UHGV virus genome: UHGV-0041589
Origin: a virus
Reading direction: 5' to 3' (one strand)
Length of the DNA stretch: 20,735 nucleotides
The position numbers were made by a program, and so were the translations under genes. Below are positions 44-8,111 of this stretch, one piece after another (within the stretch, counting starts at the first letter, position 1; every line of letters begins with the position of its first letter). Below the pieces are notes generated by a model that saw only the letters and a list, made by a program, of their open reading frames with translations, was not told the DNA's origin and did no database searches.

Positions 44-1580
44 TTGAGAATGCCGCGCACTGTAACACATAATCCGGATAGCCCCAATAATGACGATGTT
101 TTAGCCGCATCTGAAAAATGGGACGCCTGTAAACCCCCCTATACCAGCGCACACATGAAAATCTGTGTTGCTGCTGCCAAAATCATCCTCGCTGCTTCCG
201 GCGTGGCTCGCCGTTCCAAATACGAAAAAGAGAACTATCTCCGTATCGATTTCAGCAAAGCCGGTAAGGTTACATTTTACGCCGAGTTTCCAAAAAAGAT
301 GGGCCTCAAGGGTAAAAAGCTCGGCGAGTGGCCGGAGCTCGCTATCCAGCTGGCGCGCGAAAAAGCGCTAGGTATGGCTGACTGTGGCTTGCGGGCAGAG
401 TCAGTACATGCAGCGCTGGAAATGTACCGGGATGACCTCAAAGCCAAAGTCGCCCGGCAGAAGCTGAGCCCGGACAGTTTCACAACCTACGGGGTGCGTA
501 TCGACCGGATTAAAGCAACGTTCGGCGAGCGTGAGGTGTTCAGCGACGTAACATACAATCGGCTGGTGGAAGTGCTGGACGAGTGGATCGCCACTCGCTC
601 GAACAATAACGCCCTGGAGTTGTTTGCCGAGCTCCGTCGGTTCTGGAAGTTCTGCGCACCTACTCTTTGCAACGGCCGCAATGTTGCCGCCAGTCTGCCA
701 GATGATTATGTTTCCTCCCGCATACAGAAACCTACCCCCACACGGCTTTTTACCGATATTGAATCAATCGCCCGACTCTGGCTCAATGTTGCTGCCTGCA
801 CCTCTGTACACCAGAAGAATGCTGTTCGCTTCATGATCATCACTGGCGTTCGTCCGATTAATGTCCATAACCTGCGCTGGGACTACGTTCACGAGGAGGC
901 TGGTGAAATTGTTTATCCGGAAGGGGTTATCGGCATGCGAGGGGCTATGAAAACACAAAAGGGCTTCCCCCCCCCCCCNNNNNNNNNNNNNNNNNNNNNN
1001 NNNNNNNNNNNNNNNNNNNNNNNNNNNNNNNNNNNNNNNNNNNNNNNNNNNNNNNNNNNNNNNNNNNNNNNNNNNNNNNNNNNNNNNNNNNCGCCCCCCC
1101 CCCCTGCCGATAACGCCTGAGATCCGGCGGATTATCGACGAGCAGAAAGCCTGGCGTGATTCAGTTCCTGAGTGCAACAGGGATTATGTATTTTTGCAGC
1201 CACGTGATCCAATGCAGCCATTTTCAAAACGATCACTGGATAAGCTGGTGAAAACATACAGCCCGGACGGGGCTGTAAAAGGAATAAAACATGATGGGAC
1301 TGTTAAAGGGAAAGACGGTGCATTTAATACGATGTGCCGTAAATTCCTTAAGAGCAATGTTATTGCCTTGATGAAGGAAAGAGGCTATTCCCGATCAGAC
1401 CGAAGGGAAATCAGCCTCCTTTGCCTTCACCACTCCAGCAAGTCAGATGACCCGATGGCAGAACATTACGACTTTTCTGATGAGATTTTACAGGAAGAGA
1501 TTGCGTTAAAGCGCGAAGCTTTCGAGGCTCACGAGCGGAGCATACTTGCGCAGGTTGCATTGCTACGGCGGCGAGGTTAA
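44..1580 (+). CDS. int: Phage integrase (tyrosine recombinase); frame interrupted by the N-run at 979-1091, C-terminal part resumes after the gap
   Basis: ORF 44..1120 has an AAGGA RBS about 7 nt upstream of the ATG and contains a TGVRPINV segment consistent with the box I arginine. After the gap, frame 0 (from about 1104) reads LPITPEIRRIIDEQKAWRD...LHHSSKSDDPMAEHYDF, a typical integrase C-terminus with His and Tyr. Stop TAA at 1578-1580. Gap length is unknown, so intactness cannot be judged. Confidence 0.8.
979..1091. other. Assembly gap: 113 N flanked by C12 (967-978) and C11 (1094-1104) homopolymers
   Basis: Literal N characters with poly-C on both sides, read as poly-Pro in the ORF track. 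Homopolymer flanks suggest a sequencing or assembly artefact, not biology. Confidence 0.9.
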
Positions 1581-1777
1581 TACTGGCTGCGACACTTTTG
1601 AATAAAAGCGTCGACATTTCGGCGCTCATAACGAACTACTTTTGCACTGAAACGAATTGGTGCCAGGATAGCCCGATGACGATGCTTAATATTCCACTCA
1701 CATAGCGTTTTCTGTGTAATACCTAACTTTTGGCATACTTCATCTGGGGTGAGTAAATCGTCGGGTTTCTCGCTCAT
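1577..1777 (-). CDS. AlpA/excisionase-like HTH DNA-binding protein (candidate Xis)
   Basis: 66 aa; LLTPDEVCQKLGITQKTLCEWNIKH...VRYERRNVDAFI matches the AlpA/excisionase HTH pattern. Start ATG overlaps the helicase stop (ATGA). Converges on the integrase stop. Confidence 0.65.
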   Translation of the reverse strand: MSEKPDDLLTPDEVCQKLGITQKTLCEWNIKHRHRAILAPIRFSAKVVRYERRNVDAFIQKCRSQY

Positions 1778-3168
1778 GCTATACCTCTCTTTTTCATGGC
1801 ATCGAGCAGGATGTCCTGCACTGTTCGTTTTGAGTTGCGCCGCTCCATCACCATTTCGTCCATAGTGTCGGCCGCAATAATGTGGTGAATAAATACCGGA
1901 CGATTGTGTCCGGCCTGTATCTGCCTGGTGGGGCCGATACGTTCAATAATTTGCTGATACTGCTCCAGGTCCCACCAGTGTGAGAAAAATACCAGTATGT
2001 TTCCGCCGTCCTGCATGTTCAGACCGTGGCCCGCGCTGGCTGGGTGTGCAAAGAGAACAGGAATCTTTCCGGAATTCCAGTCGCGCAGTGTCTGTGGATC
2101 TTGGTCGAGGTGACGACCGCGAGGGAATGCTTTAAGCAAGCGTTCAAGATCGTGTTTCCAGTGATAAGCAACCAGCACAGGTGCGCCAGCTGCTTCGGTC
2201 AGTATGCTGTCCAGCGCTTGTAGTTTGGTGTCATGCAGTTCTGACCAACTTCCGGTGTCGTCTGTGTATACTGCGCCACTGGCGATTTGCAGACACTTCA
2301 GTGTCTTTGCCGCGGCGTTTGGTGCTTCGATGCCTTCGCCGTTCAGCTCGAGGAACATTTCCTTTTCCATTTCACGATACTGCTGACGGGCCTTCGGCGG
2401 CATATCCACGCGGATTACGTTATGGATGGGGTCTTTGATATCGAACCAGTCGGCCGCATCCAGCGAGAGGGTCACATCGGCTAACGCTCGCTGTATTTCA
2501 GCATGTGAGTGAGCAAACGGCTCCAGTTTGGTCCAGCTCTGCCCCGGAAACTGTATCGAGTTGAACCAGCGTGAGGTAAACGCGCCGTAAGTGCGCCCGA
2601 GACGTTGCCCCTGGTCCACAAACCACAATTGTCCCCACAAATCTACCAGGCCGTTCGGTGCTGGCGTACCGGTGAGATTTATCCAGCGCTGGACATACTT
2701 ATGCGCCACTTTGCCCAGCGCCGCCGCGCGCTTACCACCACCTCGCAGCCGGAAGGATTTTAGCCGGGTGCTTTCATCTGGAATGACAGTACCGAACGGC
2801 CATCGTTCTCCCAATTCCTCAACCAGCCAGACAAGGTTATCGTAGTTGATGGTGAACACGCTCGCGTTGCTGTTCGCCAGCGCTGCAGAGCGTGCTTTGG
2901 CGTTACCAACAATCGGCTGCACCTCGATATTGCGCAGATGCCCCCATTTCAGCGCTTCATCCGGCCATGTGCTTGCTGCAACGCGTAGGGGCGCGAGGAC
3001 CAGCGCGGGCTGTGTCTCTGAGCCCGCCATGAAAAGATCTTCCAGCGTGGTGAGTGTCGCTACGGTTTTACCCATCCCCATCCCTGCCCAGATGTTGCAG
3101 CGGTGAATGTCGATTTCGTGGTTGATAATTAGATCTTGGTAGGGGCGAGGCGTGAAAACTTTGGGCAT
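1774..3168 (-). CDS. SNF2-family DEAD/DEAH-like helicase
   Basis: 464 aa; RPYQ motif, Walker A GMGKT, DEST box (IPDESTRLK), C-terminal helicase motif HPASAGHGLNMQ. Confidence 0.85.
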   Translation of the reverse strand: MPKVFTPRPYQDLIINHEIDIHRCNIWAGMGMGKTVATLTTLEDLFMAGSETQPALVLAPLRVAASTWPDEALKWGHLRNIEVQPIVGNAKARSAALANSNASVFTINYDNLVWLVEELGERWPFGTVIPDESTRLKSFRLRGGGKRAAALGKVAHKYVQRWINLTGTPAPNGLVDLWGQLWFVDQGQRLGRTYGAFTSRWFNSIQFPGQSWTKLEPFAHSHAEIQRALADVTLSLDAADWFDIKDPIHNVIRVDMPPKARQQYREMEKEMFLELNGEGIEAPNAAAKTLKCLQIASGAVYTDDTGSWSELHDTKLQALDSILTEAAGAPVLVAYHWKHDLERLLKAFPRGRHLDQDPQTLRDWNSGKIPVLFAHPASAGHGLNMQDGGNILVFFSHWWDLEQYQQIIERIGPTRQIQAGHNRPVFIHHIIAADTMDEMVMERRNSKRTVQDILLDAMKKRGIA

Positions 3169-3202
3169 AATGTAACCCTTTAAAATTCAGGAGGATTGTT
3201 TA

Positions 3203-3523
3203 ATGGCTACTTTGTTAACATCAGGGTTAACTGTTCCGGAGTATTACAAAAATGGTGGAGTGCTCGACTTTGAACTGGATGCTTTAGAGGTGGGCGGGAA
3301 TAGCACTGATTTTGAAAATTACCCTTCACTGGTAAACATTCTTTCTAAAGGTTTCGAGCTTCCTGCTACATCTATGGTTAGCGATCCAAAATTTTTAGCC
3401 CCAATACTAGTTTATGGGGACTTCTGGACAAAACTTCATGCTTATACTTATGCCATGGGCGGCTCCGTTGTATATAAGCAATTACCTTCTGGACGGTATC
3501 ATGCCAGATGTGAGTGGCATTAA
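3203..3523 (+). CDS. Hypothetical protein (106 aa), AT-rich moron antisense to the surrounding operon
   Basis: Strong RBS (AGGAGG) 7-8 nt upstream of ATG 3203. Visibly lower GC than its neighbours. Diverges from the helicase start (3168) and overlaps the C5-MTase stop by 3-4 nt. No recognisable motifs. Confidence 0.6.
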   Translation: MATLLTSGLTVPEYYKNGGVLDFELDALEVGGNSTDFENYPSLVNILSKGFELPATSMVSDPKFLAPILVYGDFWTKLHAYTYAMGGSVVYKQLPSGRYHARCEWH

Positions 3524-4548
3524 ATAAGGTCGTATCCTGCGCATTCCATAAACGAGCGGATGAATGTTGCGGCAGCTGGTGCGACTATCGCGTTGCCGTA
3601 GGCGCGCAGTCGTCCCACTCTGGAGGTAATCCCATTAGCCAACGGGCATGTGCCGGATTCAACTGGCCGCCAGCGACCATCCCGGCAGAGGAGCCAGTCA
3701 GCACCATCCCAGCAGCCGTTAATCGTATTGGGCCGCAGATTCTCGCAGCGCCGCCGAGGGTCGTTCCCCGTTCGGTATGATTGGCCGCTGCGCCCTCGGC
3801 ACGAACTTGGTTGTTGTCGATCGTCGTCACTGTCGGCCATCCCGCTAATCTGGATAGTCCCGCTAAGGTTTCTAGACCGCGTTTTGTCTCCGGCTGTGGG
3901 TTTGTGTTGCAGGTTGGGGTGTACCACCCCGCTAGGTGAGCAAAATTCCGCAGGGAGCTGTGTAGCGTGTTGCCGGACGGTCGACGATCTCCAGACATCT
4001 TCCTCAATGCTATTGAGGCGCTTTCGCCACCGCTGTGATCGCTCGCCGCTGGCGTCGGCCACCCAATACGCTCTATCTCGGATATGCGGGGCACCGACGC
4101 CCGCAGCCGGAAACGGGACAAGCCCAAAGGCGTAGTCCACTGCTTCCACGTCAGTTTGTACAAGATCGAACCAGGCATTGACTCCCGCAACCTGTTCGCC
4201 AAATACCAGCTTAGGGCGTCGCTCGCTGATGAGGTGGAATAGTGCTGGCCATAGGTGCCGCTCGTCATCAAACCCAGCGCCTTTACCAGCCGAGCTGAAA
4301 GGCTGGCACGGGCAACTTCCTGTCCAGACCGGTTTGTTATCCGGCCATCCGGCCAGACGCAGAGCATAAGACCAGACGCCGATCCCGGCGAAGAAATGGC
4401 ACTGTGTGAATCCGCGCAAGTCGTCTGGTGCGACATCTTCGATACTCCTTTCATCAACTTCACCCGGGGCGATATGACCTGCAGCAATAAGGTTACGCAG
4501 CCATTGTGCTGCGTTAGGGTCTATTTCGTTGTAATAGGCTCCCCGCAC
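3520..4548 (-). CDS. DNA (cytosine-5)-methyltransferase
   Basis: Motif I FAGIG, catalytic motif [14 protein letters not shown]-like FGEQV, C-terminal AYGNAIV. Arg-rich central variable region consistent with a target-recognition domain. Confidence 0.85.
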
Positions 4549-4817
4549 AATATCCCCTCCAGATTTTTGCTATCTAATACCACCACGGTAAAGCCCAACG
4601 CGCGCAGCCGTTCGTGCTCGCGTAACTGGTCAGGCCGTGGTGGTTTGCTTGGCGCTTTGCATTCGACAAAGACGATGCGACCGCCGGGTAGCAGGACAAT
4701 GCGATCCGGTACCGAGCGGCGACCGGGTGACACGAACTTAAAGGCGACCCCGCCAGCCTTTTTCACTTCGGCGACGAGGTGCTTTTCGATAAGGCTTTCA
4801 CGTTCGTAGGCCATCAT
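4521..4817 (-). CDS. VRR-NUC domain nuclease
   Basis: Start chosen at the internal ATGATG (4817..4812) because ATG 4817..4815 overlaps the upstream MTase stop TGA 4816..4814; the longer ORF to 4940 would overlap the MTase out of frame. Pattern VAFKFVSPGRRSVPDRIVLLPGGRIVFVECKAP...LREHE matches VRR-NUC. Confidence 0.75.
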   Translation of the reverse strand: MMAYERESLIEKHLVAEVKKAGGVAFKFVSPGRRSVPDRIVLLPGGRIVFVECKAPSKPPRPDQLREHERLRALGFTVVVLDSKNLEGILCGEPITTK

Positions 4818-5721: not shown

Positions 5722-7785
5722 TTAATCCTTACGGTAGTGGTACGCCTCAAAACCGCCAGCGTTCAGTGGGATATCGGGCGCCCATTCGGGGTTAGTGGAG
5801 AGAAGCGCGGAAAGCGCTTTATCGTTGAAATCTTCTGTGTCAGGTGCTTCGGTGATCACCTCGTCGTGTACCGTCAGCACAATGCTGTAACCGGCATCTT
5901 CGATAAGCGGCATGTTTCCGGCCAGAACGTCGCGGGCGGCCGCCTGGGTGACGTTCTCTACCAGCTTTCCGCCGTAGGTTTTGAGTCGTTGCCATTTACG
6001 CGAATAAGAGTTAACACCCATATAGGTGATATTCCCTTTTTCGATAACCGGAGAGGGGTAGCATACAGCGCGTCCGGATGGTAGCTGTATGCGCAGCCAC
6101 GCGCCATCGCGGCGGATTTTAAGATAACCGCAATACAATGTTTTTTGCGGTGTGGCGATTGCAGTGCGGACGGTGCGCTCCAGTTCGTACCAGAAATCGC
6201 AGGTCGCCGGGTGCGCCCTGCGCCACAGGCGCTTGAGCGAGTCACATGCGATGAATACACGCTCGGACAGGCCAAAGGTCGACTTACGTTTAACCGATTC
6301 GTTGTACCAGCTTTTCGCCTCGCGGATAACATCGCGGGGAATGTTTGGCAGTGCGGCGTTCGCCAGCTCGTCGAGATCGAGACCGTAAACCAGAGCAAAA
6401 GTGATGAAAGCCGATACACCACCTCCATAACCCAGACCGAGTTCCATGACTTTACCGATCTGACGCATGTGTTTATCAACATCATCTGGTGCAATATCGA
6501 AAGCTTTTGCATACGCCAGTTTATATAAGTCCGGACCCGTTCCGGCGTCGTACTCTCTGAATGCATTCAGTTTCCATTCTTCTCCCGCCAGCCATGCCAG
6601 CATACGGCCTTCAATGTTCGACAAGTCACTTACCACCAGTTTTTTGCCTGTTGGCGCGATAATGCAGCCACGTAACGCTGAACTGGTTAGTTCCATGATA
6701 TTGTCAAACAGCAGGTCTGCACATCCGGCTTTCAGTGCTTCGATGCCTTCGTCTATTTGTTCCTGTTTTAGTGAAGGGCGGGGAAGGTTCTGGGGCTGGA
6801 ATAGCCGTCCGGCCCAACGACCGGTACGTGACGCCCCGCAGAACTGTAGCGTACCGCGTAAGCGCCCGTCGTGGCTTACGCCTTTCATCAGTGCCTTGTA
6901 TTTACTGGTGCTGGTAGTACTGGCCTGCAGGCGGATAGCCAGCAGTTCTTTCACGGCAGATGGTAAATCGGGGTCGGCTATACGACGTTCCAGAGTACTG
7001 CGTTGCATGTCTGGTAGCTCCACACCGTAGGATTCAACGATGTGCTTAATCAACGCGTCCCGTTGTGTTGCTGCCTGCACTTCGCCATCAGTCATTTCCT
7101 GTGTACGCTTTGCCAGGCGCTTTTGCTCCTGGTCTACCGCTTCGATCGCAGCGCGCGCGAGTTGAATGTCCATGCAGACGCCCCGGTCGTTGATCTGCTG
7201 ATCACGATGCCAGAGCGCCAGTTCTGTCCCCTGATAATTCCACTTCGGCAGACGTTTATAGACTTCGCGCATTGCCTCGATATCCAGTCCGGCGTAAGCA
7301 ACAAAGCGCCGCCATTCTTCCGGGTGGGTTTTGCTGGTGGCCCGGCGCAGTTTGCTGTTTTTCGGGCGTGGCTTACAGAACAGCTGGATCAGCGCTTTAC
7401 CTTCTTTGTCCTTCGCTTTGTCTTGCGGGACGCCTAGTACTTCGCAGAGTTCCCCCAGAGACCCCGGGAGACCGTGCGCCAGCGCCTGCACCATTGTGTC
7501 GCGCCAACGTTCGACTGGCGGTGCCAGGCGCGGCATTGCATAACGCAGGACGGTGCGGTCGAAGTGAGAGTTATGAAAATAAAGCAGGGTTTCAGGGGCT
7601 GCGATTGCTTCGTATAAGCCGTGTGGAATACCACCACCGGCAGTGATATCCCACACGTTTACGGGCTCGTCGTTGATAGCCCATGCGAACAGCATCACTT
7701 CAACGCCTTCGGCATACGCATGGGTACCGTTCGTAATAGGGATTTCGCAATAGGTTTCTAGGTCACCCCATAGTATATTGGACAT
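5722..7785 (-). CDS. Family-A (Pol I-like) DNA polymerase with N-terminal 3'-5' exonuclease domain
   Basis: 687 aa; exo motif LWGDLETY near the N-terminus, motif [17 protein letters not shown], motif C LTVHDEV. Confidence 0.9.
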
Positions 7786-7841: not shown

Positions 7842-8111
7842 GTGTTTAGCTTTGGTATCGGAATACTTTCATTGATAGGTATTATTGCTTTCCCCATTCT
7901 TTATATTTTAGGGAGAATAGTTCGGGCTGGTGGCGCATGGCTCGAACGTGAAGAAGGTCCTAAGGATCGTGTTCTTCCCAAAATTATAATTTTTGCGCTT
8001 ATTGGGTTCTTTCTTGGGTGTTTGGCTCAGCCTGTATGGGACAGCATTTCGGTATGTAGAGACTATGGCAATCCAATAGGGAAATGTCTTTTTAAATTCA
8101 ATGAATTTTAA
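7842..8111 (+). CDS. Small membrane protein (89 aa, two predicted TM helices), AT-rich accessory gene
   Basis: GTG start 5 nt after AGGAGA RBS (7831-7836). Two hydrophobic stretches (about residues 2-24 and 47-65), Cys-containing C-terminal tail. AT-rich codon usage. Opposite strand to the surrounding operon. Confidence 0.6.
   Translation: MFSFGIGILSLIGIIAFPILYILGRIVRAGGAWLEREEGPKDRVLPKIIIFALIGFFLGCLAQPVWDSISVCRDYGNPIGKCLFKFNEF

What the first reader, a model, noticed from the sequence alone, without database searches (positions are those of the whole stretch)
3169..3523. Antisense-embedded AT-rich moron between the SNF2 helicase and the C5-methyltransferase
A 106-aa ORF with a near-consensus RBS (AGGAGG) is encoded on the plus strand inside the minus-strand operon. 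It diverges from the helicase start only 34 bp away and its stop overlaps the C5-MTase stop by 3-4 nt. Transcription of the leftward operon must read antisense through it, so its expression would be anticorrelated with early lytic transcription (expected in the lysogen). Lower GC and different codon usage suggest recent acquisition. No recognisable domain.
Basis: partly seen in the sequence, partly recalled or inferred. Interest (0 to 1): 0.55.

Follow-up and report, generated by a model that had tools for sequence, protein, structure and literature searches.

The report
Antisense cargo gene in prophage hotspot
A small, real but uncharacterised protein gene sits backwards inside a prophage's DNA-replication operon, in a slot where sister prophages carry known anti-phage defence genes, so it is a good but unproven candidate for a new phage-conflict protein.

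Summary
ORF 3203..3523 (+), 106 aa, has AGGAGG 8 nt upstream, lies 34 nt from the SNF2 helicase start, and overlaps the C5-MTase span by 4 nt (TTAA). It has 42% GC against 55-58% in its neighbours. It is a genuine gene: intact in all 20 E. coli complete genomes that carry it, and between genera pN is 0.14-0.22 against saturated pS of 0.61-0.79. It belongs to an unnamed family of ~107-aa soluble acidic proteins (48 clusters at 50% identity). The confident model (pLDDT 94) matches no solved or predicted viral fold in the libraries available (AFDB not searched). The position is a cargo hotspot. In 80 phages with a 94-100% identical helicase the flanking genes abut, or carry a spacer, or hold varied cargo. 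Antisense cargos include BstA and PDC-S42, and co-directional ones are orphan methyltransferases. "Recent acquisition" is not supported: divergent alleles (29-71% identity) sit antisense in the same replication module, five of six directly facing the helicase, across several genera, all AT-rich. Relatives are also Vibrio integron cassettes and cargo of a mobilisable element. The promoter would lie in the helicase 5' end, not the 3' end, and only a weak candidate was found. Function is inferred: probably a lysogen-expressed phage-conflict protein. It is a new member of a known kind.

The parts
3203..3523 (+). 106-aa ORF (11.8 kDa, pI 5.15, no TM segment). Member of PHROG 28127 and of an unnamed family of ~107-aa stand-alone proteins. 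This is the cargo gene.
3189..3194 (+). Shine-Dalgarno AGGAGG of the ORF, 8 nt before the ATG
   Evidence: equivalent purine-rich box in all alleles
3169..3202 (.). 34-nt divergent intergenic spacer carrying both ribosome-binding sites. It is homologous across family alleles and travels with the cargo.
3176..3181 (-). Likely helicase Shine-Dalgarno (AAAGGG on the minus strand, 7 nt before the helicase ATG). It is needed because translational coupling to the upstream gene is lost when cargo is present.
   Evidence: read; compare the abutting/overlapping junctions in L065, L088, L090; inference
3166..3171 (+). Candidate -10 element CATAAT spanning the helicase start codon. It reads TGTCATAAT or TGCCATAAT (extended -10) in L020, L025, L054, L099 and L110, and the weaker GGGCATAAT in the window. 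Unproven.
   Evidence: the strict consensus scan found no promoter
3520..3523 (.). TTAA giving the overlapping convergent stop codons of the ORF and the MTase. This is the left boundary of the cargo module.
1774..3168 (-). SNF2-family helicase, the right flank of the slot. Homology with other prophages breaks within its first ~5 codons.
3520..4548 (-). DNA cytosine-5 methyltransferase, the left flank in this window. It keeps a relic '...GYDLI*' tail of the arrangement in which it overlaps the helicase start directly (as in L065).
4521..4814 (-). VRR-NUC nuclease gene. It is the left flank of the slot in relatives that lack the MTase.

Best explanation
The ORF is a genuine, selectively maintained single-gene cargo module. 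It occupies a recombination hotspot between the last gene upstream (VRR-NUC or MTase) and the SNF2 helicase in the early, leftward replication operon of a temperate phage integrated next to yfhL. The module consists of the reversed ORF, a 34-nt spacer with two ribosome-binding sites, and the first few helicase codons. It is exchanged between phages by recombination in the conserved flanks. Shown: it is coding and under purifying selection. The slot is empty, spacer-only or differently filled in close relatives. Family alleles are far more diverged than the adjacent helicase. The family also moves alone as integron cassettes and on an integrative mobilisable element. It has no known domain and no recognisable fold in the libraries that could be searched. 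Inferred: it is transcribed from its own weak promoter overlapping the helicase start when the leftward operon is repressed (lysogeny), and it is silenced by head-on transcription during lytic growth. Also inferred: its product is a small soluble acidic binding protein without a catalytic motif that acts in phage-phage or phage-host conflict, most likely protecting the lysogen from other phages (defence or superinfection exclusion), like BstA and PDC-S42, which occupy the same slot in the same orientation. Approximate confidence by layer: real gene 0.97; hotspot cargo 0.9; lysogeny-biased expression 0.55; defence/exclusion role 0.45.
For: Coding: full-length 106-aa homologues at 64-97% identity in six genera; 48 clusters at 50% identity in 1.84 billion proteins; pN 0.14-0.22 against pS 0.61-0.79; intact and at least 99.7% identical in all 20 E. 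coli complete genomes that have it; the exact protein occurs on at least 1000 contigs. Hotspot: homology in more than 100 E. coli prophages stops at the helicase start. Among 80 phages with a 94-100% identical helicase, 7 have abutting genes, 13 a 141-nt spacer, 6 this family and the rest other cargos. Orientation rule: antisense cargos are BstA (E 1e-115), PDC-S42 (6e-40), DUF6338 and other membrane proteins, and this family. Co-directional cargos are orphan MTases (2e-65, 7e-55), a PAPS reductase/SspD-like protein, Rha and a TIR-like protein. bstA is highly expressed in lysogeny and mediates abortive infection (PMC8585504). Allele exchange: helicase pN 0.03-0.13 against ORF pN 0.18-0.45; for three of four comparisons ORF pS 0.75-0.80 exceeds helicase pS 0.46-0.63. 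At least three alleles at 32-36% identity lie beside 93-96% identical helicases. Autonomy: single-gene cassette between attC-like repeats in Vibrio arrays; next to an integrase and a MobA relaxase in L018. No terminator lies between the MTase and the helicase, consistent with read-through. Reciprocal expression of nested antisense phage genes has been shown for 80alpha (PMC11087260). Integron cassettes of unknown function are reported to encode phage defence (10.1101/2024.07.02.601719).
Confidence: 0.45

Rival explanations
1. It is an anti-defence or inhibitor protein. The small acidic binder would neutralise a host or prophage immune system, and would be made from its own promoter immediately after DNA entry, before leftward early transcription reaches and silences it. 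Alternatively it is a self-immunity factor, like Ith in phage 80alpha.
For: Small (11.8 kDa), soluble and acidic across the family (median pI 5.1, net charge -7..0). The few invariant residues are mostly glycines and aromatics, with no catalytic constellation. Allele diversification is rapid. It is carried by three types of mobile element, including an integrase/MobA element. A small antisense gene product that inhibits a prophage defence has a precedent (PMC11087260).
Against: Same-slot, same-orientation neighbours with a known or candidate role are defence genes, not anti-defence genes. The family occurs as cassettes in sedentary chromosomal integrons, where a host-beneficial role is the more natural expectation. 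No partner defence gene is consistently linked: the neighbours differ (MTase in E. coli, VRR-NUC elsewhere).
Confidence: 0.2
2. It is an orphan immunity or antitoxin-like protein that protects the lysogen from a bacterial toxin (contact-dependent, T6SS or bacteriocin) rather than from phages. This would be a lysogenic-conversion function unrelated to phage defence.
For: Vibrio cassette arrays that contain it also hold Tae4 effector, ParE/Phd and GNAT cassettes. It is a small alpha/beta binder-like protein with a variable surface. It is a stand-alone gene.
Against: It is never adjacent to a toxin gene in the loci examined. No match to any Pfam immunity family. The prophage slot alternates with anti-phage genes.
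Confidence: 0.1
3. It is a phage-intrinsic regulatory device. What matters is the act of antisense transcription, or an antisense RNA covering the helicase start, which would throttle helicase expression. On this view the protein is incidental.
For: Any promoter for the ORF must overlap the helicase translation-initiation region. The geometry is conserved across alleles. Transcriptional interference in nested antisense phage genes is documented.
Against: Strong purifying selection acts on the amino-acid sequence while synonymous sites are saturated. The fold is confidently predicted from covariation (pLDDT 94.3). The same protein family exists without any helicase nearby, in integron cassettes and in an integrase/relaxase element. 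Many close relatives do without any insert.
Confidence: 0.05
4. It is a spurious ORF in a non-coding AT-rich spacer.
For: No promoter or terminator was detected. Annotation everywhere is 'hypothetical protein'.
Against: 13 of 5000 shuffles reach the ORF length. Length is conserved at 104-111 aa down to 27-30% identity. pN is far below pS. Strong SD at correct spacing. High-confidence fold. No disrupted copy in E. coli.
Confidence: 0.02

Closest known systems
Phage 'morons' (extra transcription units inserted between genes that are adjacent in related phages; Hendrix/Juhala concept for HK97/HK022; from my own knowledge)
   Same: It is inserted between two genes that abut in relatives. Its GC and codon usage are distinct. 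It is a single accessory gene, dispensable for the phage, with presence/absence polymorphism.
   Different: It is nested antisense in an early replication operon rather than co-directional in a late operon. No recognisable promoter or terminator flanks it. It is not a one-off recent insertion: a family with several deeply diverged alleles occupies the same slot.
Noncontiguous operons: antisense genes nested in phage operons (S. aureus phage 80alpha ith/tha and orf11/orf17; PMC11087260)
   Same: A small gene on the opposite strand sits between genes of one operon, and no terminator is detected between the flanking genes. [quoted passage not shown]
   Different: In 80alpha the host operon is the lysogenic cI operon and the antisense gene is lytic. 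Here the host operon is the early lytic replication operon, so the polarity would be reversed. No transcript data exist for this locus, and there is no sequence relationship.
BstA prophage abortive-infection locus (PMC8585504)
   Same: It occupies exactly the same slot and orientation in sister prophages (ETEC H10407, EL361, O103:H2). It is a single gene with its own upstream region, and bstA is highly expressed in lysogeny.
   Different: There is no homology: 106 aa against 309 aa, and no PADLOC BstA hit. No HTH/KilA-N-like domain. No evidence of an aba-like self-immunity element.
Defence hotspots of temperate phages and satellites (P2/P4-type hotspots, Rousset et al. 2022; from my own knowledge)
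   Same: There is a fixed position between conserved core genes where unrelated accessory genes replace one another, with known defence genes among them.
   Different: This is a different phage lineage (DNA polA / DUF2800 / DUF2815 / VRR-NUC / SNF2 / VapE replication module) and a different position. I found no description of this slot in the papers searched. Here strand orientation separates defence-like cargos from DNA-modification cargos.
Integron gene cassettes of unknown function that encode phage defence (10.1101/2024.07.02.601719; sedentary chromosomal integrons)
   Same: Relatives at about 41% identity are single-gene cassettes between attC-like repeats in Vibrio vulnificus and V. antiquarius arrays. 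They are very small stand-alone genes.
   Different: The window copy is not a cassette and has no attC. No family member is known to have been tested.

Membership tests
Phage moron | Inserted between two genes that are adjacent in related phages | tested here: met
   MTase-helicase overlap directly in L065, L071, L073, L077 and L079. VRR-NUC-helicase overlap directly in L088 and L090.
Phage moron | Nucleotide composition distinct from the flanking phage genes | tested here: met
   GC 0.42 and GC3 0.35 against 0.55-0.58 and 0.58-0.61. The same holds in four other lineages.
Phage moron | Own promoter upstream | tested here: inconclusive
   The strict sigma-70 scan finds none in 2700-3900. There is a candidate extended -10, TGnCATAAT, over the helicase ATG in five divergent loci, but the window has GGGCATAAT and no -35.
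Phage moron | Own transcription terminator downstream | tested here: not met
   No intrinsic terminator was found. The stop codon overlaps the convergent MTase stop.
Phage moron | Expressed from the repressed prophage | not testable with these tools
   Needs RNA-seq or a reporter in a lysogen.
Noncontiguous operon (nested antisense gene) | Gene on the opposite strand between genes of one transcription unit | tested here: met
   Plus-strand ORF between the minus-strand MTase and helicase, with no terminator predicted on either strand between them. Co-transcription itself is inferred.
Noncontiguous operon (nested antisense gene) | Reciprocal expression of the operon and the antisense gene | not testable with these tools
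   Precedent only (PMC11087260).
Known anti-phage defence families (PADLOC-DB v2.0.0) | Significant match to a defence-protein HMM | tested here: not met
   0 families at E up to 10.
BstA | Homology to the BstA HMM; about 300 aa, two-domain protein | tested here: not met
   No hit. The slot-mates L030 and L060 hit BstA at 2.5e-110 and 1.4e-115.
PHROG 28127 (viral protein family, function unknown) | Full-length HMM match | tested here: met
   E 1.7e-59, residues 1-106 on profile positions 1-106 of 106.
Any Pfam / NCBIfam family or solved-structure relative | Sequence or fold match above threshold | tested here: not met
Integron gene cassette (applies to relatives only) | Single ORF bounded by attC-type repeats in an array | tested here: met
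   In L024 the ORF 1862-2191 lies between repeats at 1665-1797 and 2183-2315. L023 and L024 have 8-11 repeat copies. This does not apply to the window copy.

The most novel reading that the evidence does not exclude
The 106-aa protein is the founding member of a new single-protein phage-conflict family (anti-phage defence/exclusion, or its mirror image, an immune inhibitor). It has a fold with no recognisable relative in the libraries searched, and it is disseminated as a self-sufficient module by three kinds of mobile element (prophage antisense slot, chromosomal integron cassettes, integrative mobilisable elements). In addition, the strand orientation of cargo in this replication-module hotspot would be a usable predictor of lysogeny-expressed defence genes against lytic-cycle DNA-modification genes.
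Probability: 0.4. Interest if true: 0.6.

Novelty: new member of a known kind. Interest (0 to 1): 0.42.

Why it matters
If the inference holds, this would be one of the smallest stand-alone phage-conflict proteins, with an unrecognised fold, and it is easy to test (321 bp, one gene). The slot it occupies also holds at least five other unannotated antisense cargos: a 265-aa membrane protein, DUF6338, 173-, 189- and 235-aa proteins, and the PDC-S42 candidate. A simple orientation rule there seems to separate defence-type cargo from DNA-modification cargo, which could guide discovery of defence genes in this widespread Enterobacterales prophage lineage. If the protein has no such role, the finding is an ordinary hypothetical prophage gene.

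Tried and rejected
2. Profile searches with the 40-member alignment against Pfam and PDB sequences gave nothing.
3. The large multi-repeat hits in the deep search (P0049 2374 aa, P0056 597 aa, P0059) were read and dismissed as compositional or repeat noise.
4. The search for related loci with the broad alignment failed because no stretch was conserved enough. The narrow alignment A1 was used instead.
5. An apparent 133-nt insertion and low-GC dip in the integrase gene turned out to be a run of N, that is an assembly gap.
6. Rfam scan of the whole window: no RNA family.
7. Strict promoter and terminator scan: none in 2700-3900. By eye, TTGATA (3122-3127) and TAAAAT (3181-3186) have no properly spaced partner hexamer and were rejected. 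Only CATAAT (3166-3171) gives sensible geometry.
8. A functional link to the C5-MTase was rejected, because in most lineages the neighbour is VRR-NUC, not an MTase.
9. Literature probes for the accession, the UniProt id and the PHROG id, and for a description of this hotspot, found nothing.
10. The neighbours of the Buttiauxella copy (423 aa, 286 aa, HNH_2) gave no informative Pfam or PADLOC hits.

Full report
OBSERVATION

- It runs 3203..3523 on the plus strand, with an ATG start, and encodes 106 aa.
- AGGAGG lies at 3189-3194, 8 nt before the ATG.
- The SNF2 helicase (minus strand, 1774..3168) starts 34 nt away.
- The C5-methyltransferase (minus strand, 3520..4548) ends at a TTAA (3520-3523) that supplies both convergent stop codons, so the gene spans overlap by 4 nt.
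- GC is 0.417 and GC3 0.346, against 0.55/0.61 for the helicase and 0.58/0.58 for the MTase.
- Only 13 of 5000 shuffles of the 351-nt slot give an open frame this long.
- No minus-strand ORF in the slot exceeds 40 aa.
- RefSeq annotates the ORF as a hypothetical protein (WP_000212683.1) in E. coli F11.

WHERE IT IS

The window is an E. coli prophage integrated beside yfhL/shoB. Its layout is as follows.
- The integrase is on the plus strand.
- A long leftward operon follows, in transcription order: DUF2800, DUF2815 (SSB), Nmad5, DNA polymerase A, ANR regulator, SAM methyltransferase, VRR-NUC, C5-MTase, helicase. By analogy with PL-type early operons, I take this to be the early lytic operon.
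- The operon lies downstream of a LexA-family repressor gene with a divergent HTH/VapE arm.

The ORF is nested antisense between the last two genes of that operon.

IT IS A REAL GENE

- **Close homologues.** Full-length 106-aa homologues at 64-97% identity occur in Salmonella, Klebsiella, Pectobacterium, Enterobacter and Buttiauxella.
- **Wider family.** An exhaustive HMMER search of 1.84 billion representatives found 48 clusters, nearly all stand-alone proteins of 102-119 aa. G18, G19, F51, W75, G87 and Y91 are invariant.
- **Selection.** Between genera pN is 0.14-0.22, while synonymous sites are saturated at pS 0.61-0.79.
- **Refutation test.** In 5,426 complete E. coli genomes the DNA occurs in 20, always full length, at least 99.7% identical and annotated as an intact CDS.
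- **Prevalence.** The exact protein is on at least 1000 public contigs, everywhere named 'hypothetical'.

NO KNOWN DOMAIN OR FOLD

- PHROG 28127 (function unknown) matches end to end, E 1.7e-59.
- Pfam, NCBIfam and PADLOC give nothing. A PDB sequence profile gives nothing.
- With the 40-sequence alignment, AlphaFold gives a confident alpha/beta model: pLDDT 94.3, pTM 0.85.
- The protein is soluble (maximum 19-residue hydropathy 0.88) and mildly acidic (pI 5.15; family median 5.1, net charge -7..0).
- It has no conserved catalytic-type constellation, which suggests a binding protein rather than an enzyme. This last point is inference.

THE POSITION IS A CARGO HOTSPOT

In more than 100 E. coli prophages, nucleotide homology to the window stops at the helicase start. 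I fetched 80 IMG/VR phages whose helicase is 94-100% identical and mapped the interval between VRR-NUC/MTase and the helicase.
- In 7 the genes overlap directly.
- In 13 there is a 141-nt ORF-less spacer.
- In 6 there is a member of this family.
- The rest carry other cargos of 0.3-1.9 kb.

Cargo type follows strand orientation.
- **Antisense to the operon:** BstA (PADLOC E 1e-115), a PDC-S42 candidate defence protein (6e-40), DUF6338 and other predicted membrane proteins, and this family.
- **Co-directional with the operon:** orphan DNA methyltransferases (2e-65, 7e-55), a PAPS-reductase/SspD-like protein, a Rha regulator and a TIR-like protein.

BstA is an experimentally shown prophage abortive-infection protein that is highly expressed in lysogeny (PMC8585504).

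Junction anatomy:
- Co-directional cargos, and the MTase in L065, end in '...DLI*' because they overlap an alternative helicase N-terminus (ATGACCTCATCTAAA).
- The window's MTase keeps that tail as a relic (GGATACGACCTTATTTAA, with the ATG destroyed).
- The cargo module begins at the MTase stop codon and brings its own helicase RBS and first ~5 codons.

NOT A RECENT ACQUISITION

- The same antisense geometry (32-34 nt to the helicase; 4-14 nt overlap with the next gene) holds for several alleles. These are at 71% identity (Klebsiella), 68% (Pectobacterium), 43% (Providencia/Proteus) and 34-36% (E. coli).
- A 29% allele in Xenorhabdus overlaps the VRR-NUC-like gene next to the DNA polymerase.
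- Every allele measured is AT-rich relative to its flanks: 0.37-0.44 against 0.44-0.61.
- The alleles are far more diverged than the helicase beside them. ORF pN is 0.18-0.45 against 0.03-0.13 for the helicase. In three of four comparisons ORF pS is 0.75-0.80 against 0.46-0.63. The alleles are therefore older than their flanks and are exchanged by recombination.
- E. coli alone holds at least three alleles at 32-36% identity beside 93-96% identical helicases.

This pattern, together with the hotspot, is what is expected of conflict genes.

THE FAMILY IS AN AUTONOMOUS MOBILE MODULE

- Members at about 41% identity are single-gene cassettes between ~130-nt attC-like repeats in Vibrio vulnificus and V. 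antiquarius chromosomal integron arrays.
- One member at 43% identity sits directly after a tyrosine integrase, near a MobA/MobL relaxase.
- Others lie in islands with toxin-antitoxin genes, or beside an HNH protein in Buttiauxella.

No partner gene is conserved, so the protein should act alone. Integron cassettes of unknown function have been reported to encode phage defence (10.1101/2024.07.02.601719).

EXPRESSION

- A strict scan finds no sigma-70 promoter or intrinsic terminator between 2700 and 3900, and Rfam finds no RNA family in the window.
- The only sensible candidate is CATAAT at 3166-3171, spanning the helicase start codon. It would place a transcription start about 25 nt before the ATG.
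- In five divergent family loci (L020, L025, L054, L099, L110) this reads TGTCATAAT or TGCCATAAT, an extended -10. The window, Klebsiella and Pectobacterium have the weaker GGGCATAAT.
- Other cargos bring their own motifs: BstA has CAT|TATAAT, and the 265-aa gene has TGGTAGAAT.
- The absence of a terminator fits read-through of the leftward operon across the antisense ORF to the helicase.

The anticorrelation idea is therefore plausible. It has a direct experimental precedent in the 'noncontiguous operons' of phage 80alpha (PMC11087260), but it is untested here.

MOST LIKELY MECHANISM AND RIVALS

I commit to the following. The ORF is a single-gene accessory module, expressed from a weak promoter overlapping the helicase start while the early operon is repressed. 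Its product is a small binding protein acting in phage conflict, most likely protecting the lysogen (about 0.45).

The rivals are:
- an anti-defence or self-immunity inhibitor expressed on entry (about 0.2);
- a toxin-immunity protein (about 0.1);
- a purely regulatory antisense unit (about 0.05), contradicted by selection on the protein and by helicase-free contexts;
- a spurious ORF (about 0.02).

COMPARISON WITH KNOWN KINDS

It behaves like a moron in being inserted between otherwise adjacent genes and in its aberrant composition, but it fails the terminator criterion and its promoter is unproven. Architecturally it is a nested antisense gene of the noncontiguous-operon type. It shares a slot, but no homology, with BstA. 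I found no description of this hotspot or of this protein in the papers searched.

VERDICT

This is a new member of a known kind (prophage hotspot cargo) belonging to an uncharacterised protein family. It is moderately interesting as a cheap, well-motivated candidate for functional testing.

Noticed in passing
window 979-1091: A run of N flanked by poly-C lies inside the integrase gene (about 50-1580 by comparison with strain F11). It is an assembly or scaffold gap, not biology. It splits the integrase ORF in the ORF listing and causes the apparent low-GC dip at 750-1200.
   Followed up: yes
window 7842-8111 (+): A second plus-strand ORF (89 aa, GTG start; F11 WP_000490741.1, hypothetical) is nested antisense between the DNA polymerase (5722..7785 -) and the Nmad5 gene. 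The equivalent position holds 57-86-aa plus-strand ORFs in Klebsiella, Pectobacterium and Providencia loci (L005, L007, L011, L020, L021). This may be a second antisense cargo slot.
   Followed up: partly
L036-L115 (slot between VRR-NUC/MTase and helicase); L030, L033, L034, L035: Strand orientation of the slot cargo tracks function. Antisense cargos are BstA, PDC-S42, DUF6338 and other membrane proteins. Co-directional cargos are orphan MTases, a PAPS reductase/SspD-like protein, Rha and a TIR-like protein. Several antisense cargos (265-aa multi-TM, 235-aa, 173-aa and 189-aa proteins) have no annotation and are defence candidates.
   Followed up: partly
window 3520-3537 (MTase 3' end); L065, L069, L098 near 3990-4002: The MTase ends '...GYDLI*', the same tail as co-directional cargos that overlap an alternative helicase N-terminus (MTSSK...). 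In the window the embedded ATG is mutated to ACG. This is a relic of a former direct MTase-helicase overlap.
   Followed up: yes
L030 (ETEC H10407) and L002 (EL361): In H10407 the helicase has an internal stop and the DNA polymerase is frameshifted, while the BstA homologue in the slot is intact. In EL361 the MTase is frameshifted. The prophages are decaying while the antisense cargo is retained.
   Followed up: no
L021 6702-8225 (-); L031 6551-7294; L034 5863-6624; L003 3109-3870; L035 5490-6518 (+): Other variable genes sit within the same replication module: SIR2_2 (507 aa), TIR-domain proteins next to the DNA polymerase, and a plus-strand HATPase_c protein between VRR-NUC and the polymerase. 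The module contains several cargo positions.
   Followed up: no
P0032 (147 aa, family relative): One family member lacks the N-terminal ~30 residues and carries a C-terminal extension with CxxC...CxxC motifs (zinc-ribbon-like). It is the only domain fusion seen in the family.
   Followed up: no
L023 and L024: These are Vibrio chromosomal integron arrays with 8-11 attC-like repeats. Besides the family member, their cassettes include ParE/Phd, GNAT acetyltransferases, GyrI-like, Tae4 and ankyrin proteins.
   Followed up: partly
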